Assembly: GCA_029262065.1 (NCBI GenBank)
Contig: JAJDAC010000044.1
Span: forward strand, 66,827-130,826
Direction: 5' to 3'
Length of the DNA: 64,000 bases
Source: Candidatus Krumholzibacteriota bacterium
GTDB taxonomy: Bacteria; Krumholzibacteriota; Krumholzibacteriia; JAJRXK01
Shown here: positions 4,134-59,516 of the stretch, one piece after another
Layout: each line of letters begins with the position of its first letter
How positions within the stretch are numbered: the stretch's first letter is position 1
The notes under the pieces: model-generated
What the model saw: the letters and a program-made list of their open reading frames with translations, nothing else
The model's database searches: none
What the model was told of the DNA's origin: nothing
Program-made: the position numbers and the translations under genes

Positions 4134-7100
4134 ATGCGTGAAACAAGTTCTCGACTCGTCCCTACCCTGCTCGCTCTCGTCTTCCTGACCATTCCCGCCG
4201 CCGTCGACGCGGCCGGAAGTACACACTTCCCAGTCGTCCGCCAACCAGAGATCGCGGGAACAACTGCCAACGTGCTGACCAGCACCGGCCGGCCGCTTGG
4301 CAAGAATACGTCCGCGGCCGACACCTTCTGCCTGTACGGCGGGCCCGGATCGTTGGAGGGCAAGTTCCAGACCGCGGTCGGCCTACCCGACTTCCAGGGC
4401 TGGATCGGCGTGGATCACACCGACCTGTCCAACTACTGGCAACTGTCCACATTCTGCGCCAGCAACCTCGACGGCGACGGCAGCAGCGGCGGCGCCGGTG
4501 ACGGCCCGGGCAACGTGGCGTACTGGTGTGGACAGACGGCCGAGCAGCAACCGCTGTGGGTCGCCGCGCCCGGATACGGAAACAACTGGAACGAAGTCAT
4601 CGAATGGACGGCTACCGTGGACGAAAGCGGTGGGCCCGTGGCGCAGACCGTGCAGCTCTCGTTCGCGTTCAACCACGAGAGCGAAGCCGGTTATGACTTC
4701 TTCACGGTCCAATACGACAGCGCGGGCGTGCTGATCCCGCTCTACACGATCGCCGGCGAGTCGTCGTTCACGGCGCCCGGTGTGCAGTACCCGGCGGAAG
4801 TACCAGCGGCTCCCATCCAGTTCACCGGTGGCGACTACGGTGGCCCCAACGGCGACCAGATTCGGCTGCTGTTCCGTTTCACCTCCGATGGCGGCTGGTC
4901 CGACGAAGGCGGCATCCTACCCACCGACTGCGGCGCCGTGCAGGTAGACGACGTGTTGGTCATCTATGAAGACGGCAGCGGAACGCAATCGAGCTTCTCG
5001 GATTTCGACAACAGCAACCACTGGACCCCATTGCTGCCGCCATTCGTTGGCGATTTTTCCGCGCTGTACGGCGGCATCACCGATCTGGATCCCTGCCGCG
5101 GCGCGGACGGTTACGTAGTGGGCTTCCTGGATGTGGGCCAATGCCCCCGAAACGGGCGCAACAACTTCGGGCAGACGCCATGCCAGGTGGCCACCCCTGG
5201 CGGTCTCACCGTGTTCAATGTGAACTACGGCGTGCCCGGGTCGTTCGTCGTGAACTACACCGGTGGGCTTACAAACAACCAGCTGGACCTGAACAACGGC
5301 GTGTGGAGCCCGGAAATCGAATGGGACCTGCCCGGCCCTGAAGACGACGGCGCGTTCGTCGTGGGCGCGAAATTGCGCTTCGACGTTTGGCGCGACCTTC
5401 CGCCCAATAACGGGATGTTCTACAGCTGGAGTGTTCGTTCGCGCGACTCGGCTGGTGTATGGACCCAGCTGCGCAACCGCAACCTGGTCTACTGGGGAGA
5501 CAATCCCACGGAGTGGCAGAGTCGCGAGGTCGACGTAAGCGATCTGCTCGCACTCGACCGGGATCGGGTTCAGATCGAACTCAAGGTGCTCGATATTTCC
5601 CAGATCTTCGGGCCACCGATACTCGCCACGCCCTCCCCGTTCTACGACAACGTAGCACTATACAAGTACGAGATCGGTGGCCCGGTCATCACGTCGCGCA
5701 ACCGCGATCTTTTCCAGGATAGCTTCCCGCAGTCCGGGCAAACCGACTTCAGCTCGTTGGCCGGCCGACAGAACGCGGCTATCCGCCTGGACATGGCTTC
5801 TGACACCCACGTATCGGACACGATCATCGTCCCCGGCGACTCCATCGTCTGCGACGTGAATGCCCTGATACCAGGAAGCACGATTACCGCCGTGGGAATG
5901 AACTACGTGATAGATCAGAACCCGGTATTCGACGACGCACGCGATCCGATAGCGGGTGGAACGACAATGGCGGGCGGCGTCTTTGGCAGTCGCGTCATGG
6001 GAACCGTGGTCGGCCAGCCCACGGGCACCGAAAACCGGTTCTTCTTCGATATGCCTGACGGCGGCAACCACCAGATTCCCGTCCCGGCGGGATCGCGCGT
6101 GTTCTTCCCGGGCGATCGCCTTCGCTACTACCTTTGGGCGACCGATGACTCCGGTCGCTCCACGACGCTGCCGGTCAACACGTCGGCCTTCGACCTGGGG
6201 CAGATGATGGGTGCTACCTACGACCGTCGGTTCACCGTGCGGGCATTGCCCTTGGTGCTCGACACCGCGGGCGACGGACCTAAGATTCTGCTGATCAACG
6301 ACGTCGGCTTTGGTGACGACGAAGCGGCGCTCGACCTGGCGTTGAGACAATCAGAGTCGATGTTCGAATCGTTCGATCGCTACAATGTCATGGATCCTGG
6401 GGCATTTCTCTCCACCGGAATCGGCACGCCGGGTGCCCACGGTGCCACGGCGAATCAGCTCTCGCGCTACGAAGCCATCGTATACCTGGGAGGCTCCCAG
6501 TCGAACGGGACGCTGTTGGCGCCAGGTTTCTTCAACTACAAGGGCGATGACCTTGGCGTGCTTACAAGCTGGTTCAACCAGAGCGGTGATCGGGCGCTGG
6601 CCATATTCGGCGACAATGTCTCCAGCTCGATCCTCTCCGACAACCCAGGTTCGGGACCCAACTTCGTGCAGTCGATTCTGGGCGTGGACGTGATAGATGG
6701 CGACGTACGTGCGGACATCGACAATCAGTTGGCGCCCCGCGTGCAGCCCACCATTTCGGTGCCCTGCTTCGGCCAGTCCTACGTGGCCTACGGAGGCTGT
6801 CAGAACATCCAGACGTTCGACAATATCGACGCATTGCCGGGCGCGGTACGCGCGCACGAACTGCTCGATCTGGTTGGCGTTCCGTACAGTGGAACTGGCC
6901 GCGCGGGATCGGTGTATTGGGACCGAACGGTGGGTGTGGATCGAAAACAGACGGTGGTGTTTCCCTACAGTTTCCTGAGCATTCGCAGCAACGTGAACGC
7001 GGGGGCACTGCCGGGCGGAGTATCGCCGCGCAGCAGGCTTCTCGGTGACGTGCTGTCGTACTGCTTCGCTCAGCCGCTGTTCGGTGAACCGACCGACGCG

Positions 7101-7388
7101 CCGGCGACAGCCCCTTTCGCGAAACTATCGAACGCTCCGAACCCCTTCAACCCCCGAACTACGTTCAAGCTTACGCTGGGCGTTCGGGATCACGCGTCGG
7201 TTCACGTCTACAACCTCAGGGGCGAATTGGTGAAGGTGCTGCAAGAGGGAGTCCTCGACGCGGGGGCCCATGATCTGATATGGGATGGTCGTGACGATCG
7301 AGGGATAGGTGTGGCCAGCGGGGTCTACGTGGTGAAAGCCCTCACGAACGGGCGCGAGATCAACGAGAAGACCGTGCTGTTGAAGTAG
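4134..7388 (+). CDS. large secreted protein of unknown function with a C-terminal Por/T9SS-type (FlgD-Ig-like) sorting domain; paralog of the gene at 60991
   Basis: N-terminal signal peptide (MRETSSRLVPTLLALVFLTIPAAVDAAGS). C-terminus NPFNPRTTFKLTL...VHVYNLRGELVKVL...HDLIWDGRDDRGIGVASGVYVVKAL...KTVLLK matches the T9SS type-A CTD / FlgD-Ig pattern. SD GGAGG upstream. Confidence 0.75.
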   Translation: MRETSSRLVPTLLALVFLTIPAAVDAAGSTHFPVVRQPEIAGTTANVLTSTGRPLGKNTSAADTFCLYGGPGSLEGKFQTAVGLPDFQGWIGVDHTDLSNYWQLSTFCASNLDGDGSSGGAGDGPGNVAYWCGQTAEQQPLWVAAPGYGNNWNEVIEWTATVDESGGPVAQTVQLSFAFNHESEAGYDFFTVQYDSAGVLIPLYTIAGESSFTAPGVQYPAEVPAAPIQFTGGDYGGPNGDQIRLLFRFTSDGGWSDEGGILPTDCGAVQVDDVLVIYEDGSGTQSSFSDFDNSNHWTPLLPPFVGDFSALYGGITDLDPCRGADGYVVGFLDVGQCPRNGRNNFGQTPCQVATPGGLTVFNVNYGVPGSFVVNYTGGLTNNQLDLNNGVWSPEIEWDLPGPEDDGAFVVGAKLRFDVWRDLPPNNGMFYSWSVRSRDSAGVWTQLRNRNLVYWGDNPTEWQSREVDVSDLLALDRDRVQIELKVLDISQIFGPPILATPSPFYDNVALYKYEIGGPVITSRNRDLFQDSFPQSGQTDFSSLAGRQNAAIRLDMASDTHVSDTIIVPGDSIVCDVNALIPGSTITAVGMNYVIDQNPVFDDARDPIAGGTTMAGGVFGSRVMGTVVGQPTGTENRFFFDMPDGGNHQIPVPAGSRVFFPGDRLRYYLWATDDSGRSTTLPVNTSAFDLGQMMGATYDRRFTVRALPLVLDTAGDGPKILLINDVGFGDDEAALDLALRQSESMFESFDRYNVMDPGAFLSTGIGTPGAHGATANQLSRYEAIVYLGGSQSNGTLLAPGFFNYKGDDLGVLTSWFNQSGDRALAIFGDNVSSSILSDNPGSGPNFVQSILGVDVIDGDVRADIDNQLAPRVQPTISVPCFGQSYVAYGGCQNIQTFDNIDALPGAVRAHELLDLVGVPYSGTGRAGSVYWDRTVGVDRKQTVVFPYSFLSIRSNVNAGALPGGVSPRSRLLGDVLSYCFAQPLFGEPTDAPATAPFAKLSNAPNPFNPRTTFKLTLGVRDHASVHVYNLRGELVKVLQEGVLDAGAHDLIWDGRDDRGIGVASGVYVVKALTNGREINEKTVLLK

Positions 7389-9130: not shown

Positions 9131-9496
9131 TCAGTCCGAGCGCGATTTGTTTTCCTGCAGCGGGAACATCTTCGAGAGAATCGTGGAGAACAGGCTCATG
9201 AGCAGAGCTCCCGCGAACGCGGAACCGAATCCGTGCACGGCGAACCCCGACACCAGGACCGAGGCCAGCGAGAACAAGATCGCGTTCAACACGAAGTAGA
9301 AGATGCCCAGGGTGACCAGCGTGATAGGCAGGGTCAGGATCACCAGTATTGGCTTCAGAACTGTGTTCAGGAACCCCAAGGCCACGGCCGCCAACAACAA
9401 CGCCGGCAGTGAGGTCACCTCCACGCCAGGAAGCGCCCACGCGGTGGCGGCCAGCGCGAGCGATAAGACGATCCACTTGGCCAGGAAACGGTTCAT
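9131..9496 (-). CDS. DUF360 / phage-holin-family-4-like small membrane protein
   Basis: MNRFLAKWIVLSLALAATAWALPGVEV...LGFLNTVLKPILVILTLPITLVTLGIFYFVLNAILFSLASVLVSGFAVHGFGSAFAGALLMSLF is the typical four-TM DUF360 layout. Start chosen at the internal Met 9496 rather than the ORF-track start 9607. Confidence 0.6.
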   Translation of the reverse strand: MNRFLAKWIVLSLALAATAWALPGVEVTSLPALLLAAVALGFLNTVLKPILVILTLPITLVTLGIFYFVLNAILFSLASVLVSGFAVHGFGSAFAGALLMSLFSTILSKMFPLQENKSRSD

Positions 9497-9624
9497 GGTG
9501 GGTTTGCTTCTGGGAGTTGGGAACGATTCGAGAACACGGAACGGCGGACAAGCCATGTAGCATAAGCGGGAGCCCGTCACGCGTCGATGGTCGACCAGAT
9601 TCGGCACGGTACGGGATACAGTCT

Positions 9625-9733: not shown

Positions 9734-10969
9734 ATGGACATCGTCGCGTCCCACCGTGCCGCTCGCGCGGCTCACCAGCAATTGATCACCGCGCTTCGCG
9801 AACTGGAAAACGCCGAGCAAAACGCCGTGCTCAGCTTCGCTGAAATTCTGCACGAACAACACTTCCGCCCCTTGGGCTTCGCCTCCATCTGGCACTACGG
9901 CATCGAGGGCTTGGGCTTCTCGAAGTCGAAGACTGCCCAATTCGTCCGTCTCGCCAAGGACGTGAAGCGCCTGCCGTCGTTGGAGCGAGCGCTGACCGAG
10001 AACGAGATCGATTGGACCAAAGCGCGTGAGATCGGCAAGGTCGCCACGGTCGACAGCCAAGATCAATGGATCGCGCGCGCCAAGACGAAGAGTCGGCGCG
10101 AACTGGAAGCTGATGTGCGCAAAGCGCGTAAGCAAGCGCTTTCATCGCCCGTGGCAGCACCGTCAACCGGGTTGCCTTCGTCAGCCGGGTTGCCTTCGTC
10201 AGCCAATCTATCTTCGCCAGCCGCACCAGTCGAGTTGCCGTCGCCCGTCGCGCCAGCCGTGCAAGCCAGCTTCATCGCCTCCGACCAGCTTCCCCAGGCA
10301 GACACGGTTCTGCGCGTCAGTTTCGAACTCACGGCGCTGGAGTTGGCCACGCTCGAGAAGCTCATGGAAAAAGCACAACGCGCGACAGCCAAGCGCAATC
10401 GATCACGGGCCGCCTTGTTGCTATCGGCCTTCGACGCATTGGTTCGGGGAACTCACGACGCCACCGCTGTTCAGGAAACGAACAAACCGGCAGCCGAGTG
10501 TACCCGGGTACACTCCACGCCAGCCCTTGGGCCCGCGTCACCCGCTACCGCGGCTCGGCCTGTCTCGTCGGCGCCACCCGTGCAGGTGGTTGTTCACCGC
10601 TGTGACTCATGCAATCAAGTCAGCGTACCCACCGACCGTGGTGACCTCCCACTCTCGGCCGCCGAAGCCAGCGCGGCTACGTGCGACGCCGTGGAGTTCC
10701 ACGCCACGAAACCAAGCCGCTCACGTATTCCAAGGAAGATCAGAAAACGGGTGCTCGCGCGCGACGGGCAGCGGTGCCGCGTGTGCCGCTCAACACGTTT
10801 CGTCGATGTGCATCACCGCCACAAGGAAGCCGACGGAGGCCCCCACACAGTGGAAAACTGCATGTCGCTGTGCCGGGCGTGTCATGTGAACACGCATCGC
10901 GAGGAGGAACTCCTGGAGCGAGGCGTTGCGCTGGAACGTGAGGTCATGAGCAACGTGGGCGCTGACTGA
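9734..10969 (+). CDS. DUF222-domain HNH endonuclease (REP13E12-family-like)
   Basis: N-terminal DUF222-like helical region. Low-complexity GLPSSAGLPSSANLSSPAAPVELPSPVAP linker. C-terminal HNH nuclease: CRVCRSTRFVDVHHRHKEADGGPHTVENCMSLCRACHVNTHR. Confidence 0.8.
   Translation: MDIVASHRAARAAHQQLITALRELENAEQNAVLSFAEILHEQHFRPLGFASIWHYGIEGLGFSKSKTAQFVRLAKDVKRLPSLERALTENEIDWTKAREIGKVATVDSQDQWIARAKTKSRRELEADVRKARKQALSSPVAAPSTGLPSSAGLPSSANLSSPAAPVELPSPVAPAVQASFIASDQLPQADTVLRVSFELTALELATLEKLMEKAQRATAKRNRSRAALLLSAFDALVRGTHDATAVQETNKPAAECTRVHSTPALGPASPATAARPVSSAPPVQVVVHRCDSCNQVSVPTDRGDLPLSAAEASAATCDAVEFHATKPSRSRIPRKIRKRVLARDGQRCRVCRSTRFVDVHHRHKEADGGPHTVENCMSLCRACHVNTHREEELLERGVALEREVMSNVGAD
10496..10515. 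repeat. perfect 20-bp palindrome GAGTGTACCCGGGTACACTC (copy 1, inside the HNH gene)
   Basis: Exactly self-complementary. A second copy, GAGTATACCCGGGTACACTA (18/20), lies at 59346..59365. Confidence 0.8.
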
Positions 10970-11629: not shown

Positions 11630-14260
11630 TTGTTCGCGGAGTTGCTCGATCTTTCGCCTGACCGTCGCGCCCGACGACTTGCCGAAATCTGCGCTGAAGA
11701 CGCCTCGACCGGCGACGAGCTGCGTTCCCTTCTGGGCGCCCATGGCGAGGCCGGCCAGTTTCTCGAGCCCGGCCGAGACGCATCCGTCGATCCGTTCATC
11801 GGACAGCAGATTGATCGCTACCGCGTGGTTCGACTGCTAGGCAAGGGCGGCATGGCCGAGGTCTACCTGGCTGAGCGGGCCGATGCCACCTTCGACAAAC
11901 AAGTCGCTCTGAAGCGAATCCAACCGGGGCTCAACAACGCCTCCGTCGTCTCTCGCTTCCACGCCGAGCGCCAGGCGCTGGCCAACCTGGAACATCCCAA
12001 CATCGCTCGCCTGATCGACGGCGGGTCGGCCGAAGATGGTCGGCCGTTCCTGGTCATGGAGTACGTCGACGGCAGCCGCCTCGACGAACATTGCGACGAC
12101 AAGCAGGCCTCGATCGAAGACCGCCTACGGCTGTTTCTGGACGTGTGCGGAGCCGTGCACTTTGCGCATCAGAACCTCATCGTCCACCGCGACCTGAAAC
12201 CCGCCAACGTGTTCGTCAACGACCAGGGCGTGGTCAAGTTGCTGGACTTCGGTATCGCCAAGTTTCTCGATGCCGATTCCGCCGGCGCCGCCATCGACGC
12301 CACGGCCACGCAACACCGCGTATACACCCCGGCCTACGCCAGTCCCGAGCAAGTGCGCGGTCAACCCATCTCCACGGCCACCGACGTGTACGCGCTGGGT
12401 GTGATTCTGTTCGAGTTGCTCACCGGTCACCGCCCGTACCGCATCAGCCCAACCGCCACGTTCGCCGAGATCAGTCAGGCCATCTGCGACCAACCGCCCG
12501 AGCACCCCAGCCAGGTGCTCACAACGGGCGAGAGCGGCGCCGATACGGCCGATCGAATTGCCAAACTGCGCTCGGTCAGCGCGGCGCAACTGCGCCGCAA
12601 CCTATCCGGCGACCTGGCCATCATCGTTCTCAAGGCACTGCGTAAGGAGAAGGAGCGACGCTACGATTCGGTCGAGGCGATGGCTGAAGACATCCGGCGC
12701 TTCCTGTCTGGCCACCCGGTACTGGCCCGTCCCGATTCAGCCCGCTACCGCGTGGGCAAGTTCGTCCGGCGAAACAAAGCGCTGGTAGCCATGGCGTCGG
12801 TCGCCGCGGTGGTGCTGATCGCCAGCTCGATCGTGAGCAGTGGTCTTTTCGTGCGCGCCGAACGCGCGCGCGCGGCGGAACAGGAGCAACGTCAACAAGC
12901 CGAGCTCAGCAGCGACTTTCTTGAGTCGTTGTTGGGCAACATCAATCCCGACGTGGCCCTCGGACGGGACACCGAGCTCCTGGGCGAAATCCTGAAAGAC
13001 GCCTCGGCGCGCATCGACGATGAACTGGAATCATCGCCACTCATTGCCGCTCGCATGCACGTCGTCATCGGTTCGGCCTACAATTCCATTGGTGAATACG
13101 AGCGGGCCGAGACCCACCTGAACCAGGTAGCCGCGATGCATGCGTCGCAGGGAGATGCGCCGCCGCTCGACGTGGCCGAGCGCTTGGCGGCCCAGGCCAA
13201 TCTGGCGAGCAACGTCGGCAAGAATGATGAGTGCCTCGAATTCGCCAGCCAGGCGATTGAACACTACGAGCAAGAAGGCCAGGGGCGATCACCTTCGGCC
13301 GCTTCCGTGCTTCTCCTCGTAGCGAGAGCCCAGGCAAACCTGGGCAACTACGACGAGGCCATCGCGACACTGGAGGGCATGCTGCCGTGGCTGGAAGCAT
13401 CTCCCGATCTTCAGTCACAACTGGGTGAGTGCCTCAGTAGACTCGGACGTACCTACGCCATCGAAATGCGGTCGGCAGAATCCATCAACACGCTCGAACG
13501 CGCCATCGCGCAGGCCCGCAGTGTTCACGGCGATGAGCATCGACTGGTGGGAACCGCCTACCTCAATCTGGGATGGGCACAGTATCGCAGCGGGCAACCC
13601 GAGGCCGCCGAAGCCAATTTCAGGGAATCGCTACGCATCTGTCGCAAGGTCCTCCCCGCCGACCACCCTGACATCGCCACCTCGATCAATCAACTGGCGG
13701 GCGCGCTGGAGGAACAGGGCAAGCACGAGGAAACCGAAGCACACTTTCTGGATGCGATCGACCGCTTCAAGGCGTCCTACGGCGACAAGCACCCCGACGT
13801 CGGCACGGCCTACAACAACCTGGGCGCGCTCTACGTGAAGATGAAACGGTACGATGAAGCCAGCGCAAACCTGCAGCGTGCGGCCGATACCTACGGGGCG
13901 GTTCTGGGCGAAGACCACGTGTACGTGGGGATCGTGCTGCAGAACCTGGTCGGCGTGTACGACGATCAAGACCGACTATCAGAGGCCCGCGATAGCATCG
14001 AACTTTCCCGCCGAATACTGTCCGAGAGCTTCGGTGAAGACGACATCCGCACGCAGTACATGCATGCGGCCCACGCCATGATTACCGCCAGCGAGGGAAA
14101 ATTCGAGGAAGCCGAACCCGTCCTGCTGGCCGCCGAAAAGGCATTGGCGGAGGCCAAGAATCGCAGGCTGGGTCGATCTCGCCGCTTCCTGGCCCGCTTC
14201 TACGACATGTGGGGCCGGTCCCAGGAAGCGAAACAATGGCGCGATCGAATCGATGAATAG
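11630..14260 (+). CDS. serine/threonine protein kinase with a C-terminal TPR-repeat array
   Basis: Hanks kinase motifs LGKGGMAEVY, ALK, HRDLKPANVF, DFGIAK, SPEQ, followed by a TM segment and multiple TPR-like repeats. TTG start at 11630 after GGAGG (11586-11590); exact start uncertain. Paralog at 56275. Confidence 0.85.
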   Translation: MFAELLDLSPDRRARRLAEICAEDASTGDELRSLLGAHGEAGQFLEPGRDASVDPFIGQQIDRYRVVRLLGKGGMAEVYLAERADATFDKQVALKRIQPGLNNASVVSRFHAERQALANLEHPNIARLIDGGSAEDGRPFLVMEYVDGSRLDEHCDDKQASIEDRLRLFLDVCGAVHFAHQNLIVHRDLKPANVFVNDQGVVKLLDFGIAKFLDADSAGAAIDATATQHRVYTPAYASPEQVRGQPISTATDVYALGVILFELLTGHRPYRISPTATFAEISQAICDQPPEHPSQVLTTGESGADTADRIAKLRSVSAAQLRRNLSGDLAIIVLKALRKEKERRYDSVEAMAEDIRRFLSGHPVLARPDSARYRVGKFVRRNKALVAMASVAAVVLIASSIVSSGLFVRAERARAAEQEQRQQAELSSDFLESLLGNINPDVALGRDTELLGEILKDASARIDDELESSPLIAARMHVVIGSAYNSIGEYERAETHLNQVAAMHASQGDAPPLDVAERLAAQANLASNVGKNDECLEFASQAIEHYEQEGQGRSPSAASVLLLVARAQANLGNYDEAIATLEGMLPWLEASPDLQSQLGECLSRLGRTYAIEMRSAESINTLERAIAQARSVHGDEHRLVGTAYLNLGWAQYRSGQPEAAEANFRESLRICRKVLPADHPDIATSINQLAGALEEQGKHEETEAHFLDAIDRFKASYGDKHPDVGTAYNNLGALYVKMKRYDEASANLQRAADTYGAVLGEDHVYVGIVLQNLVGVYDDQDRLSEARDSIELSRRILSESFGEDDIRTQYMHAAHAMITASEGKFEEAEPVLLAAEKALAEAKNRRLGRSRRFLARFYDMWGRSQEAKQWRDRIDE

Positions 14261-15130: not shown

Positions 15131-17515
15131 TCACTTCAAGAGAGCAATCTTTCGCCGCTCGCTGACCCCGGGAGCTTCCAGCCCCACGAAGTACGCGCCC
15201 GACGCAACGGGTCTTCCGGCGTCATCGCGACCATCCCACACCACGCGTTGCACGCCTTCCATGAACGCTTCGTTTGCAAGCTGGCGAACGCGACGCCCGA
15301 GTAGATCAAAGACATCCAGCCTCGCGGTTCCTGCTACGGACATGCGAAATACGATGCTGGTGCTGGGATTGAACGGATTGGGATAGTTCCACAACATCGC
15401 TTTGGCCGGCACCGGGTCGGTCGCCACGGGTCCGCCCAGAAGCAAAACCGTAGCGGAGGCATTGGTCGCGGACCCGCCGATGAAATCCACCACCGCCATG
15501 TCCAACGTGAACCCCGACAGCGAGCTGGGCTGTACCCGCTTGGCCGCGAAAAGGTTGACCGCGACCAGATTCGCCGCGGCCGGGAAGGTCGCAGCGGGAA
15601 ACGTCACTGGTTGCGGAACCACGTGGACGATTACCTCGATACTGCCTCCGGCCGGGACCGCGGGCGTAACCCCGGTGAGGGTCGGCAGACCCTCCAATTC
15701 CACGAACAACAACCCCGATGAGTGGAACAGATCGGCCCGGGCCGTGTCGTAGTGGTTGAACGCATTGAGCTCGACCTGGTATTGCGCGTCGGCCAGGCCC
15801 ATGTTGGTGATGACGTATCTGGCCGGAGCAAAACCATTGTACGGAGTTTCCGAAGATGCTGGTTCCGGCAACACCGCCGTCTGCCGTTGGTCGGTAGGAC
15901 TCACGGCCACTGCGTTCACGCACCCGTAGTCCACGTCCACCGTGTGCCCGTCGATCTTCAGGATGACCTTGTAGATGGCGGTGAACCCTTCGGGGGCCGT
16001 GGGCGGGCAGGTTATCGTGAAATCTTCCCAGAACTTCCCGTTCGCCATGACCGTCACCGTTTGCGGCGTGGAGTCAACGTTGTCCAGGTCGCCGTTGTCG
16101 GTGCCACCGATCGGCGTGTTGGCTCCCAAACCGGTGCGACCGTTCTGAACGATGAAGGTAACCGGCTTGTCCGTGGGATCGACCGTACCGTGCACCTTGA
16201 TGGTTCGCGTCTCGCCGGGTTGGCAGGTCCAACTGTTCACCCACACGCTGCCCTTGTATTGCGGGTCGCCCCGCATGGGTCCGGGATCTTTGGGCCGGTA
16301 CGGCGTGTCTCCCCAGTACACGGTGGGATTCTGGGTATCCACCCAGTCCCAGGCCTCATCCCAGTCGACGCCGTTGGGTGGCTGATTCTTGTCGGCTGAA
16401 TCGTTGTCCCAGCAATCGGAGAACGCACCCGAGAACACACTCCGGTTGCCAATGAACGTTCGGCCACCGCCGGTCTGGGGCAGATCGTAGAAACCACCGC
16501 CCCACCCCACCGTGCATTCATCGGTGGAGCTGATGATGGTTGCGCCCTTGAGCGTCTCGGAGAGCCCGTCAATCAGGCTGCCCGAGTGACACGCCTGAAC
16601 AATCACGCACAACTTGGCGTTCTTGGTAGCCAAGGGCGCCAGAGCCGCCTTCAGTTCGGCCTCGGTAATCTCCTTCTCGGCGTCATTGGCGCCCTGTCCG
16701 AAGAACTTGTTGGGCAGCCCGTGCCCGCCCAGGAACACGAAGATCTTGTCGCACTCGGGCGTGATAGCACATACCTGGGTGACCAGGGCCGTCAAATCAC
16801 TGAGCTTTCCGCCCTTCTTCTTCTTGATGCGAGTGGCTCCCATACCGCGGGCAGCCATCTGTCCCTCGAAGCGGTCGAGGTCATCATTGAATGTGTTGTC
16901 ATTCGATCCAGTGAAGAGCAGAGCGCAGGGATCGCCCTTGAATGCGGTTACCTTGGGAACCGCCACGCGCGGTTCGGACTTGGCCATGGGTGTAACGGTT
17001 TCGGCAATACCGCGCACCAGACCGTCGCTGTTGGTGGGATCGGCCGGCGAGTCGCTGCGGCGGTTTATGAAATATTCCGTCGCGAGCCCACCGATGTTGA
17101 TTTCGAGCCACCAACTCTCGTCGGTCACCGCCGCCGTGGCCGTGGCAAACGGTTGGTTGGCGTCGATGATGGCGAACCGCACGAAGTGGGACCAAAGAGC
17201 AATGGGATCGTCGTCGATCAGGAACACGTACGACTCGTCGGCCGTGTGCACCGCCGTGGTTTGCAGCGGATGATTCTCGAACGCCGGCTCCACGGTCGAA
17301 CCCAGCGGCAACCGTCCTTCGAAACCGGGGCCGGCGCCGAAGTCGACGAACGGGCTCCACACGGGCGTGTCGGGCGCGAGAGTGACCTCCCGCTCGAGCA
17401 CGGCCACCGCCTCGGCGCGGGTCAGCTGGGCGACGGATGAAGAGGGAAGCAGTAGGAGAAGAGCCACGGCCAGAACGGCGCGGGTGGCAATTGGTCGCGG
17501 CGGGGGAAGATGCAT
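15131..17515 (-). CDS. clan-CD cysteine peptidase (legumain C13 / gingipain-caspase-like) with a Por/T9SS-type CTD
   Basis: Signal peptide. His-Gly and Cys catalytic dyad context KIFVFLGGHG ... KLCVIVQACHSGSLIDG (compare legumain EACESGS, caspase QACRG). C-terminal NYPNPFNPSTSIVFRM...LDVFDLLGRRVRQL...VVWDGRDDAGRPVASGAYFV...KIALLK. Confidence 0.75.
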   Translation of the reverse strand: MHLPPPRPIATRAVLAVALLLLLPSSSVAQLTRAEAVAVLEREVTLAPDTPVWSPFVDFGAGPGFEGRLPLGSTVEPAFENHPLQTTAVHTADESYVFLIDDDPIALWSHFVRFAIIDANQPFATATAAVTDESWWLEINIGGLATEYFINRRSDSPADPTNSDGLVRGIAETVTPMAKSEPRVAVPKVTAFKGDPCALLFTGSNDNTFNDDLDRFEGQMAARGMGATRIKKKKGGKLSDLTALVTQVCAITPECDKIFVFLGGHGLPNKFFGQGANDAEKEITEAELKAALAPLATKNAKLCVIVQACHSGSLIDGLSETLKGATIISSTDECTVGWGGGFYDLPQTGGGRTFIGNRSVFSGAFSDCWDNDSADKNQPPNGVDWDEAWDWVDTQNPTVYWGDTPYRPKDPGPMRGDPQYKGSVWVNSWTCQPGETRTIKVHGTVDPTDKPVTFIVQNGRTGLGANTPIGGTDNGDLDNVDSTPQTVTVMANGKFWEDFTITCPPTAPEGFTAIYKVILKIDGHTVDVDYGCVNAVAVSPTDQRQTAVLPEPASSETPYNGFAPARYVITNMGLADAQYQVELNAFNHYDTARADLFHSSGLLFVELEGLPTLTGVTPAVPAGGSIEVIVHVVPQPVTFPAATFPAAANLVAVNLFAAKRVQPSSLSGFTLDMAVVDFIGGSATNASATVLLLGGPVATDPVPAKAMLWNYPNPFNPSTSIVFRMSVAGTARLDVFDLLGRRVRQLANEAFMEGVQRVVWDGRDDAGRPVASGAYFVGLEAPGVSERRKIALLK

Positions 17516-17725: not shown

Positions 17726-19996
17726 ATGAGCGCTTTCGACCAACATCTCGCGCAGGTTACCGATTGGTTCGGTGATCCCCGATTCGGTGGGATCGAGCGC
17801 CTACACACTCCCCGCGAAGTGGCCATGCAGCGCGGCACCATCGCAACCGACTATATCGTGGCGCGCGAGGCGGCCGACGCCTTCTACGCGCGGCTGCGCG
17901 AACTGTTCGATCAACGCAGGTCGATCACCACGTTCGGACCCTACTCCCCGGGACAAGCCGTGACCATGAAGCGGCTGGGGCTGGAAGGAATCTACCTGGG
18001 CGGATGGGCAACCTCGGCCAAGGGCTCACAACACGAAGATCCGGGGGCGGATCTGGCCAGCTATCCGCTGAGTCAGGTGCCCAACGAAGCCGCCCCCATC
18101 GTGCGCGCACTGTTGGCCGCCGACAAGAACCAGCAGTTCGCCCGCTCGCGCATGACGCCCGAGCAGCGCGCGGCCGCGCCCGAGATCGACTTCCGACCGT
18201 TCATCATTGCCGACGCCGACACCGGACACGGAGGCGACGCGCACGTGCGCAACCTGGTGCGCCGCTTCGCGGAAATCGGCGTGCCCGGCTACCACATCGA
18301 GGACCAACGACCGGGCGTGAAGAAGTGCGGCCACCAGGGCGGCAAGGTCCTGGTTCCCCTGGACGAGCAGATCAAGCGACTGAACGCCGCTCGCTTCCAG
18401 CTGGACGTCATGGGCATCGCGGGAATCATCGTGGCCCGTACCGACGCCGAGTCGGCGACATTTCTGGAAGGTCGCGGTGACGAACGCGATCAGCCGTTCA
18501 TCCTGGGCGCCACCAACATGGATCTGCCCACCTACAAAACGGCGTACGTTTCCATTCTCAAGGCATTCTACGAGCGCGGCGTGGAAGATATCCGCGGCCA
18601 TCTACTCTATGCGATTTCCGACACTGAGTTCGAAGCCGCCAAGGTGTGGCTGGATCGCGCGGGATTGACGGCAATGATCGACGAAGCGGCCGACAAACTG
18701 CTGAGCAGTACTCAGCCCGCCGTCGAAGCGACCCTGGATGAGGTCGTGAACCGATTCCTCGAGGTATGGCAGGCCGAGGCCGGTCTGAAAACCTACGGCG
18801 AAGCCATCGGCGATGTGCTGGAGTTCCGCGCGACCGAGGGCGAGTCGTTCGACATGGATCTGGCGCAATGGCGCGACTTCGCGACCAAGGCCTCGTTCTA
18901 CGAAGCGCGCGAAAAAGCCAAATCCATGGGTCTGCAGATCATCTGGAACTGCGAACTCACCAAGACCACCGAGGGCTACTATCACATTCGCAGCGGCATC
19001 GACTACGCCATCGCCAAATCGCTGGCGGCCGCCCCGTTCTCCGACCTGCTATGGATGGAAACCAAGACCGCCGATCTGAAGGACGCGCGCAGGTTCGCCG
19101 AAGCCATCCACGCCGAGTATCCCGATCAGATGCTGGCCTACAACCTGTCGCCGTCGTTCAACTGGGACACCACCGGCATGAGCGACGAAGAGATGTCCAG
19201 ATTCCCCCAGGAACTGGGCAAGTTGGGCTACGTCTTCAATTTCATTACCTACGGTGGCCATCAGATCGACGGCCTCGCCGCCGAGGAATTTGCCACCGCG
19301 CTGCGTGAAGACGGCATGTTGGCGCTGGCCCGACTGCAACGGAAGTTCAGGTTGGTCGAGTCACCGTACCGGACACCCCAAACACTGGTGGGCGGACCGC
19401 GCCTCGACGGCGCACTCATGGCCTCCACCGGCCGCACCGCATCGACCAAGGCCATGGGCAAGGGCTCCACGCAATTCCAGCACCTGGTACAAACCGAGGT
19501 ACCGCCGACGCTGCTCGCGGGATGGTTGGACCTGTGGGCCGAGCACTACGACCTGCCCCGAGGTCTACGCGTGGAACTACGCCCCCACACCGCGGCGTCC
19601 GAACTACTGGAACTTCGAATCTTCAGCGCGAAACAAGAAAAAGTGGCCGACGTGGTGTTCGCGAACATCCATGACCGTCGCGGCCACAGCATCCTCTCGG
19701 TGCGCGATCAAAACACCTTCGACACCGCGCTGCGTAAGAAACGGCTCATGTCCATCACGCATCTGTTCCTGATCCACCGCTACAAGGCCTATTCGGTGCA
19801 CTACGTAAGCCCCACCGAAGACAACGAGTACCAGTGCAAGAAAATGCAGGATCACGGCCTGTTTGCCGACGTGCATAGCGAGGTGGGCCATATCATCGTG
19901 GCCACGGTCAATCACGAGCGCGTGGCCAGGCTGCTCGAGTCCGATCAGGTGGCGTTGAAGAAGCTGATCGACAAGACTGAGCCGCCGTCGTCGTAA
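17726..19996 (+). CDS. aceA: isocitrate lyase, long (ICL2/AceAb-like, 756 aa) form
   Basis: ICL signature KKCGHQGGK and [13 protein letters not shown], a TIM-barrel core, plus the eukaryote/mycobacterial-type insertion and C-terminal extension. Confidence 0.9.
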
Positions 19997-26498: not shown

Positions 26499-27724
26499 CT
26501 CCTCTGCTCGAGCCGCGACCAGAGACGAGAGGCCTCGGCTTCGGCGCGAGTTCGAATGTATTCCATGTCGGCCGAGGTGAGCTTTCCCTCCGCGACCACC
26601 AATCTTCCTCCGACCACAACGTGGCGAACCCTATCGCCTTCCACCACGATCAGGTCGGCCATCGATCCCGGCGCGAGATCGAAATCCGCGTCGAAGATCT
26701 CGCCCATCAACTTGCGGCCGGCATCCAGCCGGCCGTCGACGGCTTCTGAACGCTCGCCATGCTCCGCCGCATCCAAGGCCAGAACCGCCCGCTCTTCTTT
26801 CATATAGGCAGGGTAGCCGTCGGTGCCCAGGGCCACGCGCTTGCTCTCGCGAATCGATCGCGGGTAGCCCACGCCATTGCCCCGATTGGAACGCGGATTC
26901 TGCACGATCCAAAGTCCTGCTTCGTCGATCGCGCGTACGGACTCAGCCGAGGTGTGAACGCAGTGGGCCAGAATCGACCCGGCCGGCGCCACATTCAGTC
27001 GCCGAAGCCGATCCCACGGATCGAGGTAGCCCCGGGCCTGGGCATCGACCACGTCGGCCATGTCCTCGGCCACATGGATGTGCAGGGGTACGTCCAACTC
27101 ACGACAAACGTCGCCGACTTCGCGCAGGGTTTCATCGGAAACGGTGAACGAAGCATGCACACCTACCATGCCCCTCACCAGTGGCCGGCGATTCTCGCGT
27201 ACGAAGCGGCGGCACTCGCGCATCCCTTCGGCGGCTTCGTCGCGCCCCCGATTTCTTTCGGTTGCTCCGTACGCTATCACGGCGCGAATCCCAAGTTGAG
27301 AAGCGACGTCTGCAATCACGTCGAGCGAACCGTCGATGAAGTTGGGCGACTCGTGATGGTCAACAAGGCTCGTGGTGCCGTACAGCAGTGCGTTGGCCAG
27401 GTAGAACTCGGCCGATGCGCGCAACGCAGCTTCATCGAGGGCCTCGTCCAACGGCCACCAGACCCGTTCCAGAATCTGAACGAAATTTTCGGGCGCCATG
27501 GCCGGAGCGGGCATGTCGAACGGGGCCAACCCGCTGTACACGTGGGTATGGGAATTCACGAATCCCGGCTGAATGCGACCGCCCGTGCAATCGACCGCCT
27601 GTGCCCCGCTGGTCCCGGCGCCTTGCGCGGTTTTCGAGTTCCGGGTTTCGCGAATGCGATCCCCCTCGATGAAAACCGTGAGTCCGGTTTCATCTGGACC
27701 AAGGATCAGACCCGGCTGGCTCAT
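26495..27724 (-). CDS. amidohydrolase of the chlorohydrolase / cytosine-guanine deaminase superfamily (SsnA-like)
   Basis: Metal-binding HTHVYSG near the N-terminus, ...HIHVAED..., ...LGTDGY.... 409 aa. Sits beside the XdhD-like and YgfK-like genes as ssnA does in E. coli. Confidence 0.7.
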   Translation of the reverse strand: MSQPGLILGPDETGLTVFIEGDRIRETRNSKTAQGAGTSGAQAVDCTGGRIQPGFVNSHTHVYSGLAPFDMPAPAMAPENFVQILERVWWPLDEALDEAALRASAEFYLANALLYGTTSLVDHHESPNFIDGSLDVIADVASQLGIRAVIAYGATERNRGRDEAAEGMRECRRFVRENRRPLVRGMVGVHASFTVSDETLREVGDVCRELDVPLHIHVAEDMADVVDAQARGYLDPWDRLRRLNVAPAGSILAHCVHTSAESVRAIDEAGLWIVQNPRSNRGNGVGYPRSIRESKRVALGTDGYPAYMKEERAVLALDAAEHGERSEAVDGRLDAGRKLMGEIFDADFDLAPGSMADLIVVEGDRVRHVVVGGRLVVAEGKLTSADMEYIRTRAEAEASRLWSRLEQRR

Positions 27725-30387: not shown

Positions 30388-31265
30388 TGGGCCTCCTCGG
30401 CCGCCGTCAGAGATCCGTAGGCTTCCGGACGTCGATCGCGATAGAACTGCCACTGGGCGCGAACTTCGCCAATCATGTCCAGGTCGAGGTCGGCCACAAC
30501 CAACTCGTCCTTGTCGCGTGAACCCAGGCTCAGTATCTCGCCGCGCGGATCGCAGAAATAGGAGCTGCCGTAGAACTCGCCGATATCCCACGGCTTCTCG
30601 AATCCCACGCGGTTGTTGGTTCCCACGAAGTATCCGTTGGCCACGGCGTGGGAAACCTGTTCCAGCTTCCAAAGATATTCCGAGTGGCCCGCGGTTGTCG
30701 CCGACGGGATGAACACGATTTCCGCGCCCGCAAGACCCAATGCCCGCGCGCCCTCGGGGAAGTGGCGATCGTAGCAAATGTAGACGCCTACCTTGCCGTA
30801 CCTGGTCTGGAACACGGGGTAACCCAGATTACCGGGCTTGAAATAGAACTTCTCCCAGAACCCGGGCAGACAGTGGGGAATGTGGGTCTTGCGATACTTT
30901 CCCAGGTAGCTGCCATCGGCGTCGATGACCGCCGCCGTGTTGTAGTAGACGCCGGTCATCTCTTCTTCGTACACCGGCACGATCAAGACCATACCGTGCT
31001 TCTTGGCCAACGCCTGCATGGCCTTGGTCGTGGGCCCGTCGGGTACGGGTTCGGTGAGATCGTACCAGCGCGTGTCCTGTTCGGCGCAGAAGTAGGGCCC
31101 GTAGAAGAGTTCCTGCAGGCACAGAATCTGAACACCGTCTCGCGCGGCGTCTTCGATCAGGGACAAGTGCTTGCCCATCATCATTTCCTTGAGCTCGTCG
31201 TTGCCCATTCCCCGGCTATCCGGACATGAAACCTGCGTCAGTCCGCACTTCACGATTCGCGTCAC
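30384..31265 (-). CDS. carbon-nitrogen hydrolase (beta-ureidopropionase-like), paralog of the gene at 22731
   Basis: QELF (Glu), YRKTHIP (Lys), VYICYDRHF (Cys). 293 aa. Confidence 0.8.
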   Translation of the reverse strand: MTRIVKCGLTQVSCPDSRGMGNDELKEMMMGKHLSLIEDAARDGVQILCLQELFYGPYFCAEQDTRWYDLTEPVPDGPTTKAMQALAKKHGMVLIVPVYEEEMTGVYYNTAAVIDADGSYLGKYRKTHIPHCLPGFWEKFYFKPGNLGYPVFQTRYGKVGVYICYDRHFPEGARALGLAGAEIVFIPSATTAGHSEYLWKLEQVSHAVANGYFVGTNNRVGFEKPWDIGEFYGSSYFCDPRGEILSLGSRDKDELVVADLDLDMIGEVRAQWQFYRDRRPEAYGSLTAAEEAQ

Positions 31266-32143: not shown

Positions 32144-32619
32144 GATTCATCGCCCCCCGGCAGGAGGGCTTCGACCGAACGTAGAATGCCTTCGTATCCG
32201 GTGCACCGACACAGGTTCCCACCAAGCGCTTCGCGCACTTCCGTCCGATTTGGAGCGGGATTGCGATCGAGCAGGGCCCGCAGGGTAATCAGGATTCCCG
32301 GCGTGCAGGCGCCGCACTGGACACCGCCTGCTTCCACGAAAGCTTCCTGGATGGGATCAAGAACGCCGCCTGTCTCGAGATCTTCGATCGTCCGCACGGT
32401 ACGGCCACGAACCTGGATAAGCGGAACCAAGCAGGAACACACGGGCTCGTCGTCCAGCAACACCGCGCACGCTCCGCACTCCCCCTCTCCACATCCTTCT
32501 TTCGACCCGGGAAGCTCGCAATGTTCGCGAACCACGTCCAATAGCCGGGACATGGGATCCAGGTCCACTTTCACGGCCTTGCCGTTGAGTGAGAACGAGA
32601 TGCCTCCCTTCCCCGTCAT
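32140..32619 (-). CDS. molybdenum hydroxylase [2Fe-2S] (small, CoxS/XdhC-like) subunit
   Basis: CGEGECGACAV (plant-type ferredoxin cluster) and CGACTPG (second cluster). 159 aa. Confidence 0.9.
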   Translation of the reverse strand: MTGKGGISFSLNGKAVKVDLDPMSRLLDVVREHCELPGSKEGCGEGECGACAVLLDDEPVCSCLVPLIQVRGRTVRTIEDLETGGVLDPIQEAFVEAGGVQCGACTPGILITLRALLDRNPAPNRTEVREALGGNLCRCTGYEGILRSVEALLPGGDES

Positions 32620-40173: not shown

Positions 40174-40262
40174 CCGTGCAGGCACGTTCGTCAACAAGAC
40201 CGACAACATCGTGGTACAATGGACTCCCTCCCTCCCGAACCCAGTCCGAGAGGTCTTTCCTT

Positions 40263-58899: not shown

Positions 58900-59321
58900 A
58901 ACTCGAGCAGGCGATCGACCTTCTCGCGCACATCGGGTTCCATGGCCACGGCTTTCATGGTCTTCAAGTCGACGAAGACCTTGGTGATGGTACCGGCGGC
59001 GAGAACTTGCGCGTCTTGCCCCTCGTCAGGACGGACGATCTCGAACCGCCAGGTCCAGCTCCGTTCGCTGCGCCGCAGGATCTGGGCTCGGACCTCGATG
59101 GTGTCGCCGTGCCGGATGGGACCCGTGAAGTCGCTCTCGCAGTGGACGATGGGCGCGCCGACCCCTCGCTTCTCGAAGAATTCCTGGAACGGGATCTTCA
59201 AGACCTCGTGGAAGAAGTCCTCGTAGGCCAGGTGGAAGTAGTGGAAGACGCGCGGGTAGTAGACGAGTCCCGCGTGGTCGGTATGACCAAACGGAACGCG
59301 CATCCGATAGCGATGGATCAA
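58896..59321 (-). CDS. hotdog-fold acyl-CoA thioesterase (4HBT/YbgC-like)
   Basis: 141 aa. VPFGHTDHAGLVYYPRVFHYF N-terminal signature of 4HBT thioesterases. Confidence 0.75.
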   Translation of the reverse strand: MIHRYRMRVPFGHTDHAGLVYYPRVFHYFHLAYEDFFHEVLKIPFQEFFEKRGVGAPIVHCESDFTGPIRHGDTIEVRAQILRRSERSWTWRFEIVRPDEGQDAQVLAAGTITKVFVDLKTMKAVAMEPDVREKVDRLLEF

Positions 59322-59345
59322 GAGAAGCCCCTGCTGGTTGAGGTG

Positions 59346-59365
59346 GTCAACATACGAGTATACCC
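59346..59365. repeat. near-palindrome GAGTATACCCGGGTACACTA (copy 2 of the 10496 palindrome) in the thioesterase / lipoprotein divergent intergenic region
   Basis: 18/20 identical to GAGTGTACCCGGGTACACTC. The central 14 nt TACCCGGGTACACT are identical. Confidence 0.75.
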
Positions 59366-59516
59366 GGGTACACTACGGCGTCGCTCCGTTCAAGAACTTA
59401 TGGGATCCAAGTCCGTGGACCGTGTCAACGAACGAAGAATCTGGTCACAGGAGTCGCGCAGCTCCGACCTCTTCCCTGAAGCCACCCTCGATCGACTCAT
59501 CCATCGGAGAATCTGA

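What the first reader, a model, noticed from the sequence alone, without database searches (positions are those of the whole stretch)
4134..7388. Paralogous pair of large CTD-bearing secreted proteins bracketing the window (4134..7388 and 60991..>64000)
The two proteins share a collinear series of motifs over >900 aa. They both carry a signal peptide and a Por/T9SS-type CTD. I cannot place either in a known family. The central part (ILLINDVGFGDDEAALD...AIVYLGGSQSNGT...LAIFGDNV) is faintly reminiscent of ThuA / class-I glutamine-amidotransferase-like folds. A duplicated, diverged, secreted family of this size is a candidate for a lineage-specific extracellular enzyme or adhesin.
Basis: partly seen in the sequence, partly recalled or inferred. 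Interest (0 to 1): 0.55.

Follow-up and report, generated by a model that had tools for sequence, protein, structure and literature searches.

The report
Unnamed family of T9SS-exported surface proteins
The two big genes at the ends of the window are distant copies of a widespread, never-studied family of exported bacterial surface proteins built from sugar/protein-binding-type modules plus an amidotransferase-like domain that lacks the usual catalytic cysteine; it is a real but fairly ordinary "protein of unknown function" case.

Summary
ORF A (4134..7388, 1084 aa) and ORF B (60991..>64000; 1030 aa in full) align over about 1030 columns at 35% identity (E 2e-146). Both start with a Sec-type signal peptide and end in a T9SS type-A / FlgD-Ig-like C-terminal domain.

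No Pfam or NCBIfam model covers the ~930-aa core. They belong to a large unnamed family: 994 representatives at 50% identity, almost all 1000-1100 aa, all called "hypothetical".

An AlphaFold2 model (pLDDT 81, pTM 0.75) shows five parts:
- an InhA/MAM-like jelly roll;
- a second β-sandwich;
- a third β-sandwich;
- a 270-aa α/β domain;
- the CTD.

The α/β domain modelled alone (pLDDT 87) matches class-I glutamine-amidotransferase-like folds: STM3548, the GH42 middle domain, HisH, and more weakly ThuA-like. The nucleophile-elbow Cys is replaced by a mostly conserved Asp, and no zinc motif exists.

The most likely role is a T9SS-exported, surface-displayed binding or scaffold protein. An unrecognised hydrolase is the main rival.

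A and B are old paralogues, not a recent duplicate. B has lost several near-invariant residues.

This is a new member of a known kind, of modest interest.

The parts
4134..7388 (+). ORF A, 1084 aa, complete (stop included)
   Evidence: the ORF listing. Identical to database protein P0001.
4134..4211 (+). ORF A Sec-type signal peptide (residues ~1-26, predicted cleavage after VDA)
   Evidence: Sequence inspection. pLDDT is below 50 over residues 1-44 apart from a short helix.
4314..5033 (+). Domain 1 (residues ~61-300): all-beta jelly roll, InhA/MAM-like, with near-invariant acidic residues (E184, D188, D252, D257, D272)
   Evidence: DSSP of the model. PF20773 hits 6 of 46 members, best E 1e-4. 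Foldseek matches the InhA2 zymogen 4yu5/4yu6 and meprins at prob 0.99-1.0. Conservation.
5034..5678 (+). Domain 2 (residues ~301-515): second beta-sandwich, ending in the conserved FDNV strand and containing C321
   Evidence: No profile similarity to domain 1.
5679..6248 (+). Domain 3 (residues ~516-705): third beta-sandwich with conserved PGDS, NPxF..R, DLPD and PGDxLRYY motifs
6249..7103 (+). Domain 4 (residues ~706-990): class-I glutamine-amidotransferase-like alpha/beta domain. It has FGD (D827) where the nucleophile-elbow Cys would be, and invariant D748 and Y779.
   Evidence: Domain model pLDDT 87.4, pTM 0.89. Foldseek against PDB. Conservation.
7119..7385 (+). C-terminal sorting domain (residues ~996-1084), Ig-like beta-sandwich, PNPFNPxT start, G1030 and K1079 conserved
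   Evidence: PF13860 at 35.7 bits; TIGR04183 at 20.8 bits. The family profile hits the PorZ CTD 5m11 and FlgD structures. Conservation.
60991..64000 (+). ORF B, first 1003 of 1030 codons (runs off the window end)
   Evidence: Translation. Identical to P0146 over residues 1-1003.
61468..61827 (+). ORF B residues 160-279: weak InhA-like MAM match
   Evidence: PF20773 E 0.28, below threshold. Aligned with domain 1 of A.
63016..63804 (+). ORF B GATase-like domain (residues 676-938), shorter than in A and lacking the conserved GPSSxVSNGIGSxGxHGA loop
63832..64000 (+). ORF B start of the CTD (truncated by the window end)
   Evidence: Full-length P0146 passes TIGR04183 at 26.1 bits.

Best explanation
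A and B are two distant paralogues of a large, unnamed family of ~1050-aa proteins. The proteins are exported across the inner membrane by Sec, through an N-terminal signal peptide. They are exported across the outer membrane by a type IX secretion system, through a type-A C-terminal sorting domain, and end up on the cell surface or in the medium. The mature protein is a compact four-domain body: an InhA/MAM-like jelly roll, two further beta-sandwiches, and a class-I glutamine-amidotransferase-like alpha/beta domain that lacks the catalytic Cys. I consider it most likely a surface-displayed binding protein. In that reading the beta-sandwiches capture a glycan or protein ligand, as they do in MAM/CBM modules and phage tail fibres. 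The GATase-like domain would act as a non-amidotransferase scaffold, oligomerisation or ligand-binding module, as the homologous-fold middle domain does in GH42 glycosidases. Shown: homology, domain folds, sorting signals, absence of the Cys nucleophile and of HExxH, family size. Inferred: the T9SS route, surface location, binding role, and the role of the GATase-like domain.
For: Paralogy: 35% identity over 1032 columns, E 2e-146. Signal peptides; 118 of 125 family members have a hydrophobic N-terminus. CTD: PF13860 passes in A. TIGR04183 passes in full-length B and in 8 of 8 other members. The family profile hits the PorZ CTD 5m11. The Gly (G1030, 99%) and C-terminal Lys (K1079, 94%) correspond to the motifs shown to matter for T9SS CTDs (PMC11285876). 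Three other proteins in the same window carry the same CTD; two pass TIGR04183 and one is just below. Folds: full model pLDDT 81.4, pTM 0.75. InhA2 and meprin MAM matches have prob 0.99-1.0, and PF20773 hits 6 of 46 members. Viral matches are phage tail fibres, minor tail proteins and CBM-CenC proteins. The domain-4 model has pLDDT 87.4 and matches STM3548 (E 2.7e-6, TMt 0.57), the GH42 middle domain (E 8e-5), HisH and the CTP-synthase glutaminase domain. Larger relatives keep the four-domain core and add beta-helix, DUF11, FG-GAP or cohesin/dockerin modules, all extracellular adhesion or polysaccharide-type modules. No catalytic signature: 0 of 125 have HExxH. FGD replaces G-x-C-x-G. No enzyme family is hit by Pfam or NCBIfam.
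Against: The family is much more uniform than typical adhesins. Domain order is fixed and length is 991-1159 aa (median 1077). There are no internal repeats. About 158 positions are at least 80% conserved across 125 diverse members, many of them Asp, Arg, Gln or Ser in loops that follow the beta-strands of domain 4. That pattern fits an enzyme or a conserved machine part at least as well as a binding protein. No ligand, partner or conserved gene neighbourhood was found. The presence of T9SS machinery in this genome could not be checked. All full-length Foldseek matches have TM about 0.1, because they chain beta-sandwich hits together, so they say little beyond 'array of beta-sandwiches'.
Confidence: 0.5

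Rival explanations
1. The family is an unrecognised extracellular enzyme whose active site lies in the GATase-like domain. An Asp (D827) replaces the usual Cys or Ser at or next to the nucleophile elbow. A His (H908) lies on a late beta-strand where class-I GATases carry their His-Glu. Other members of this fold are Ser or Cys hydrolases, including the peptidases PepE, LD-carboxypeptidase and PfpI (established knowledge). The beta-sandwiches would deliver a polymeric substrate.
For: The most conserved stretch of the protein is the set of loops after the parallel strands of domain 4: ND after beta1, GPSSxVSNGIGSxGxHGA after beta2, LSDG..NDKxDD after beta3 and FGD after beta4. D748 and Y779 are invariant, D806 is 98% conserved and D827 is 86%. 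The strand-G-D-N-helix topology resembles a nucleophile elbow. The family shows enzyme-like uniformity of length and architecture.
Against: D827 is Asp in only 107 of 125 members and H908 is His in only 92 of 125, with Ala in 27. A catalytic dyad should be nearly invariant. The equivalence of these residues to triad positions rests on secondary-structure order, not on a superposition, because no coordinates were available. The closest structural neighbours (STM3548, GH42 middle domain, ThuA-like) have no demonstrated catalytic activity (PMC13432705). ORF B lacks the conserved beta2 loop altogether.
Confidence: 0.25
2. The family is a conserved cell-envelope machine component of this FCB-group lineage, for example a PorU- or PorZ-like accessory of the T9SS attachment complex that keeps its CTD, rather than a cargo with an external substrate.
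For: The best full-length PDB match is PorU (6za2, E 4e-8, prob 0.9), which is of similar size. The CTD scores against the CTD portions of the PorU and PorZ models. Architecture is highly conserved, with one to three copies per genome.
Against: NF033707 (PorU) scores 27.9 bits against a cut-off of 420, and the match covers only the CTD. TM-score to PorU is 0.10. Domain 4 alone does not retrieve any gingipain, PorU or caspase-like structure in the top 50. There is no conserved His-Cys pair of clan CD type. C889 is conserved, but it pairs in occurrence with C321 in domain 2 (120 of 125 members have both), which looks more like a disulfide. The gene is not next to any T9SS gene in the window or in the other four loci whose gene tables were examined.
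Confidence: 0.1
3. The proteins are degenerate relatives of immune-inhibitor-A (M6) metallopeptidases, comparable to the NCBIfam 'T9SS-dependent M6-like inactivated metalloprotease'.
For: There is an InhA-like MAM domain. NF052323 has a similar length (1043 positions) and the same kind of CTD.
Against: NF052323 matches only the CTD, at 18-35 bits against a cut-off of 600, and gives no hit at all for A. Residues 1-705 are all-beta, with no metzincin-type alpha/beta catalytic domain. 0 of 125 members have HExxH.
Confidence: 0.05

Closest known systems
T9SS type-A CTD cargo proteins (TIGR04183 / PF18962; e.g. P. gingivalis RgpB, and PorU/PorZ, which keep their CTD)
   Same: N-terminal signal peptide plus a C-terminal ~85-aa Ig-like beta-sandwich. 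The Gly in the beta3-beta4 loop and the Lys in the last strand are conserved. Full-length B and other members pass TIGR04183.
   Different: The host is not Bacteroidota; the closest genomes are Krumholzibacteriia MAGs. The CTD scores better on PF13860 FlgD_ig than on PF18962. ORF A falls just below both T9SS cut-offs. The passenger part is unrelated to any characterised cargo.
Immune inhibitor A (InhA, peptidase M6) MAM-like domain, PF20773; eukaryotic MAM domains (meprin, enteropeptidase)
   Same: Domain 1 has the same jelly-roll fold and weak sequence similarity, including the D/E-rich motifs.
   Different: There is no M6 catalytic domain and no HExxH. The MAM-like domain sits at the N-terminus rather than after a peptidase domain.
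Class-I glutamine-amidotransferase-like superfamily: STM3548 (2gk3), STM1381 (3soz), GH42 middle/trimerisation domain (5xb7), HisH, ThuA-like (4e5v)
   Same: Domain 4 has this alpha/beta fold (Foldseek prob 1.0, TM 0.44-0.61).
   Different: There is no sequence-level match to any Pfam or PDB member. Asp replaces the Cys nucleophile. The location is extracellular. A long conserved loop after beta2 is not reported for the neighbours. ThuA-like is only a marginal match (E 0.027).
PorU, the T9SS sortase (6za2, NF033707)
   Same: Similar size, a multi-beta-sandwich plus alpha/beta plus CTD layout, and the best full-length Foldseek E-value.
   Different: TM is 0.10. The HMM match is confined to the CTD. 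There is no gingipain-type catalytic domain or His-Cys dyad.

Membership tests
T9SS type-A sorting-domain cargo (TIGR04183 / PF18962) | C-terminal domain reaches the curated score of TIGR04183 (23 bits) or PF18962 (27 bits) | tested here: met
   Full-length ORF B (P0146) scores 26.1 bits on TIGR04183. Eight of eight other members score 27-42 bits. P0069 and P0064 pass PF18962. ORF A itself is just below: 20.8 bits on TIGR04183 and 12.6 on PF18962.
T9SS type-A sorting-domain cargo (TIGR04183 / PF18962) | N-terminal Sec signal peptide | tested here: met
   Both N-termini have a basic n-region, a hydrophobic core and an Ala-rich cleavage region. This was judged by inspection; no dedicated predictor was available.
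T9SS type-A sorting-domain cargo (TIGR04183 / PF18962) | Conserved Gly in the beta3-beta4 loop and Lys in the last strand of the CTD | tested here: met
   G1030 is 99% conserved and K1079 is 94% across 125 members. The motifs are described in PMC11285876. The positional equivalence is inferred from strand order.
T9SS type-A sorting-domain cargo (TIGR04183 / PF18962) | T9SS machinery (SprA, PorV, PorU, GldKLMN) encoded in the same genome | not testable with these tools
   Only 64 kb of the genome is available, and none of the window proteins that were scanned (about 30 of its ORFs) matched a T9SS machinery family over its core. Indirect support comes from three further proteins in the window with the same CTD.
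FlgD (flagellar hook assembly protein) | Full-length match to FlgD equivalog models | tested here: not met
   NF005176 scores 29.5 bits against a cut-off of 230, and only the Ig-like domain matches. PF13860, the domain alone, passes at 35.7 against 27.
Class-I glutamine amidotransferase (catalytic) | Alpha/beta fold of the superfamily | tested here: met
   Foldseek of the domain model gives STM3548 at E 2.7e-6, the GH42 middle domain at 8e-5, HisH at 3e-3 and CTP-synthase glutaminase at 1e-2.
Class-I glutamine amidotransferase (catalytic) | Cys nucleophile in a G-x-C-x-G elbow after the central strand, plus a His-Glu pair | tested here: not met
   The strand at 820-825 is followed by G826-D827-N828. 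D827 is Asp in 107 of 125 members and never Cys. H908 is His in 92 of 125 and position 909 is Glu in 45 of 125.
ThuA-like (PF06283) | Match to the Pfam model or clear structural similarity | tested here: not met
   No Pfam hit at E <= 0.1 in any of 46 members. The structural match to 4e5v is marginal (E 0.027, prob 0.66, TM 0.42) and is outranked by 17 other chains.
Peptidase M6 (InhA) / NF052323 M6-like inactivated metalloprotease | M6 catalytic domain (HExxH in active members) and a full-length HMM match | tested here: not met
   0 of 125 members have HExxH. The N-terminal 700 residues are all-beta. NF052323 matches only the CTD, at 18-35 bits against 600. Only the MAM-like domain is shared.
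PorU sortase (peptidase C25, NF033707) | Gingipain-type catalytic domain with a His-Cys dyad and a full-length HMM match | tested here: not met
   NF033707 scores 27.9 bits against 420 and covers only the CTD. There is no Peptidase_C25 Pfam hit. Domain 4 retrieves no clan-CD structure.

The most novel reading that the evidence does not exclude
The family could be a new class of extracellular enzyme or conserved envelope-machine component in Krumholzibacteriota-like FCB bacteria. In that reading a class-I GATase-like domain has been rebuilt around an Asp/His site in place of Cys-His-Glu and is stapled to beta-sandwich domain 2 by a conserved C321-C889 disulfide. This would explain why about 1000 diverged members keep the same four-domain body and about 158 conserved positions.
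Probability: 0.2. Interest if true: 0.55.

Novelty: new member of a known kind. Interest (0 to 1): 0.3.

Why it matters
CTD-tagged surface and secreted proteins are how FCB-group bacteria, including uncultured phyla such as Krumholzibacteriota, interact with polymers and particles in sediments and soils. This family is abundant in metagenomes (about 1000 clusters at 50% identity). It is large and strongly conserved, and no Pfam or NCBIfam model describes its core. Defining its domain structure gives a basis for a family model and for choosing targets for expression. If the amidotransferase-like domain proves catalytic, it would add a new chemistry to that fold. If it does not, the family is one more multi-module binding protein.

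Tried and rejected
- **Sequence searches of the PDB.** Searches with A, with the family profile and with the domain-4 profile found only FlgD and PorZ CTD matches and an insignificant neuropilin MAM hit.
- **Internal duplication.** hhalign between the five domain profiles found nothing; all probabilities were below 1%.
- **Conserved gene neighbourhood.** The window and the four homologue loci whose gene tables were examined share no neighbours. The one exception is an M28 peptidase upstream in two mutually syntenic genomes. Two look-ups found no record.
- **Horizontal transfer or an island.** GC is flat at 0.60-0.63 across the window.
- **Promoter and terminator scan around A.** Results were not above the shuffle expectation.
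- **Recent tandem-type duplication.** Rejected by a neighbour-joining tree of 125 members. A lies in a 21-leaf clade and B in a 40-leaf clade, and other genomes have their own independent duplicates. No bootstrap was run, and B is a long branch.
- **Zinc metallopeptidase.** No HExxH in 125 members.
- **PorU-like sortase.** Rejected (see membership test).
- **Literature searches.** FlgD-Ig / Krumholzibacteriota, T9SS in candidate phyla, and STM3548 gave no functional information on this family. STM3548 itself is uncharacterised. The PorU structure paper is not held.
Full report
**Observation**

ORF A occupies 4134..7388 on the + strand (ATG start, 1084 aa). From 60991 the + strand is open to the end of the window for 1003 codons. 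A database protein, P0146, is identical over all 1003 residues and is 1030 aa long, so the window lacks only the last 27 residues of ORF B. BLASTP of A against B gives one collinear alignment of 1032 columns with 35% identity and E 2e-146.

Both proteins begin with a typical Sec signal peptide. GC content is flat at 0.60-0.63 across the window, so neither gene sits in a compositional island.

**Sorting domain**

Pfam finds only PF13860 (FlgD Ig-like) at the C-terminus of A, at 35.7 bits against a cut-off of 27. PF18962 and TIGR04183 fall below their cut-offs in A, at 12.6 and 20.8 bits. Truncated B also scores low. Full-length B passes TIGR04183 at 26.1 bits against 23, as do all eight other family members tested, at 27-42 bits.

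A profile of the family also hits the CTD of P. gingivalis PorZ (5m11) and FlgD Ig domains in the PDB. G1030 (99%) and K1079 (94%) are conserved. They correspond to the Gly of the beta3-beta4 loop and the Lys of the last strand, which mutagenesis showed to matter in T9SS CTDs (PMC11285876).

Three other proteins in the window end in the same domain:
- a C13-like peptidase at 15131..17515;
- a 594-aa protein at 38389..40173;
- an NF038122 metalloprotease at 43674..45014.

The CTD is therefore the general sorting tag of this organism, and A and B are best read as T9SS type-A cargo. I could not test whether the genome encodes the T9SS machinery.

**Family**

A word-indexed search found about 70 full-length relatives (30-55% identity, 1010-1130 aa). 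Wherever a source names them they are 'hypothetical', and only the CTD is annotated. A profile of the α/β domain alone, searched against 1.84 billion cluster representatives, found 994 proteins at E <= 1e-3 and 384 at E <= 1e-30. In nearly all complete ones the domain sits at about 650-1000 of a 1000-1100-aa protein.

The nearest genome-resolved relatives are two paralogues in a Krumholzibacteriia MAG. I infer from this that the source is that phylum or a neighbour in the FCB group.

A few giant relatives keep the same core. They add beta-helix plus DUF11, FG-GAP, or cohesin/dockerin modules next to it, N-terminal to the core or between it and the CTD. One 777-aa relative has only domains 3-4 plus the CTD. 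The gene neighbourhood is not conserved.

**Structure**

AlphaFold2 with a 46-sequence alignment gave a confident model (pLDDT 81.4, pTM 0.75). Its parts are:
- signal peptide and a disordered linker (residues 1-60);
- beta-sandwich 1 (61-300);
- beta-sandwich 2 (301-515);
- beta-sandwich 3 (516-705);
- an α/β domain (716-985);
- the Ig-like CTD (996-1084).

Domain 1 is InhA/MAM-like. PF20773 is hit in 6 of 46 members (best E 1e-4). Foldseek matches the B. anthracis InhA2 zymogen and meprins at probability 0.99-1.0.

The other full-length matches all have TM about 0.1. They are PorU, GH2 glycosidases, complement C3b, and phage tail-fibre, minor-tail and CBM-CenC proteins. They reflect chained beta-sandwich similarity.

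The α/β domain modelled alone (pLDDT 87.4, pTM 0.89) matches class-I glutamine-amidotransferase-like structures:

| Structure | Foldseek E-value |
|---|---|
| STM3548 (2gk3; TMt 0.57) | 2.7e-6 |
| STM1381 (3soz) | 2e-5 |
| GH42 middle domain (5xb7) | 8e-5 |
| HisH (7ac8) | 3e-3 |
| CTP-synthase glutaminase domain (2vkt) | 1e-2 |
| Homoserine O-succinyltransferase (7cbe) | 2.4e-2 |
| ThuA-like protein (4e5v) | 2.7e-2 |

No gingipain, PorU or caspase-like structure appears among the top 50.

**Catalytic signatures**

- None of 125 full-length members has HExxH.
- In domain 4 the central strand (820-825) is followed by G826-D827-N828 and a helix. This is the topology of the nucleophile elbow, but with Asp (107 of 125) and never Cys.
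- A His on a late strand (H908) is present in 92 of 125, with Ala in 27.
- D748 and Y779 are invariant and D806 is 98% conserved. The loops after the parallel strands are the most conserved part of the protein.
- C321 in domain 2 and C889 in domain 4 are both Cys in 120 of 125 members. This suggests an inter-domain disulfide, which is an inference because I had no coordinates.

The domain is therefore not an amidotransferase. A different, unrecognised active or binding site at the canonical location cannot be excluded. The nearest solved structure, STM3548, has no known function (PMC13432705).

**Relationship of A and B**

In a neighbour-joining tree of 125 members, A falls in a 21-leaf clade with its 47-55% identical relatives and B falls in a 40-leaf clade. 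Their common ancestor subtends 61 leaves. Each ranks only about 57th to 80th among the other's neighbours. Other genomes carry their own duplicates within single clades.

The pair is therefore an old duplication, or two retained lineages of a recurrently duplicating family. It is not a recent event. The tree has no bootstrap support, and B is a long branch.

B has replaced several residues that are near-invariant elsewhere: R435G, Q480K, D569N and S570A. It also lacks the conserved GPSSxVSNGIGSxGxHGA loop of domain 4. This points to relaxed or altered function. A itself deviates at D259, which is Gly in A and Asp in 122 of 125 members.

**Interpretation**

The steps that are shown are homology, the domain folds, the sorting signals, the lack of Cys and Zn catalytic motifs, and the size and uniformity of the family. 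The steps that are inferred are export through a T9SS, surface display, and function.

I favour a surface-displayed binding or scaffold protein (confidence 0.5). In that reading the MAM/CBM-like beta-sandwiches bind a ligand and the GATase-like domain is non-catalytic, as in GH42. The main rival is a new hydrolase centred on domain 4 (0.25). The enzyme-like uniformity of the family and the conserved strand-end loops support it, and the incomplete conservation of D827 and H908 weakens it. A PorU/PorZ-like machine component (0.1) and a degenerate M6 peptidase (0.05) are poorly supported.

**Comparison and novelty**

The passenger region belongs to no curated family, and I found no paper on it. 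All of its folds and its secretion tag are known kinds. It is best filed as a new, unnamed member of the class of T9SS CTD cargo proteins, with an unreported domain combination. Interest is modest. The family is abundant and well conserved in uncultured FCB bacteria and deserves a family model. Nothing here is mechanistically surprising yet.

Noticed in passing
window 15131..17515 (-): A 794-aa protein with a weak Peptidase_C13 (legumain-like, clan CD) match at residues 254-375 and a T9SS type-A CTD (TIGR04183 23.2 bits against a cut-off of 23). A clan-CD peptidase carrying this CTD is the sort of protein one would examine as a PorU-like sortase candidate in this lineage.
   Followed up: partly
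window 43674..45014 (-) and 38389..40173 (+): Two more CTD-tagged proteins. One is a 446-aa NF038122-family metalloprotease (206.9 bits). The other is a 594-aa protein with beta-propeller-repeat hints and a strong TIGR04183 match (34.6 bits). The window is rich in putative T9SS cargo.
   Followed up: partly
window 45094..52416 (-): A giant 2440-aa ORF with three DUF11 repeats, a CBM96 and a weak CARDB match, presumably a surface protein. DUF11 also appears in a giant fusion relative of the studied family (P0180).
   Followed up: no
window 11630..14260 (+) and 56275..58899 (+): Two paralogous Ser/Thr protein kinase plus TPR-array proteins (876 and 874 aa). The second lies about 2 kb upstream of ORF B.
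   Followed up: no
window 59517..60716 (+), 58818..59516 (+), 52351..53892 (+), 41388..42992 (-), 40176..41279 (+): Five sizeable ORFs (232-534 aa) with no Pfam or NCBIfam match. The 399-aa and 232-aa ORFs lie directly upstream of ORF B on the same strand.
   Followed up: partly
window 27721..30777 (-) and 32616..35009 (-): Two molybdopterin-dependent xanthine-dehydrogenase / aldehyde-oxidase family proteins. The first is fused to 2Fe-2S domains. Smaller ORFs lie between them.
   Followed up: no
window 17726..19996 (+): An unusually long (756 aa) isocitrate-lyase-family protein, with the ICL match split into two stretches.
   Followed up: no
window 9734..10969 (+) and 9131..9607 (-): A 411-aa protein with a C-terminal HNH endonuclease motif, next to a small ORF that the Logan gene table annotates as Phage_holin_4_2. 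This may be a mobile or phage remnant just downstream of corA.
   Followed up: no
ORF A residues 321 and 889 (window 5094..5096 and 6798..6800): Two Cys residues in different domains are both present in 120 of 125 family members. This suggests a conserved inter-domain disulfide, which could not be checked without model coordinates.
   Followed up: partly
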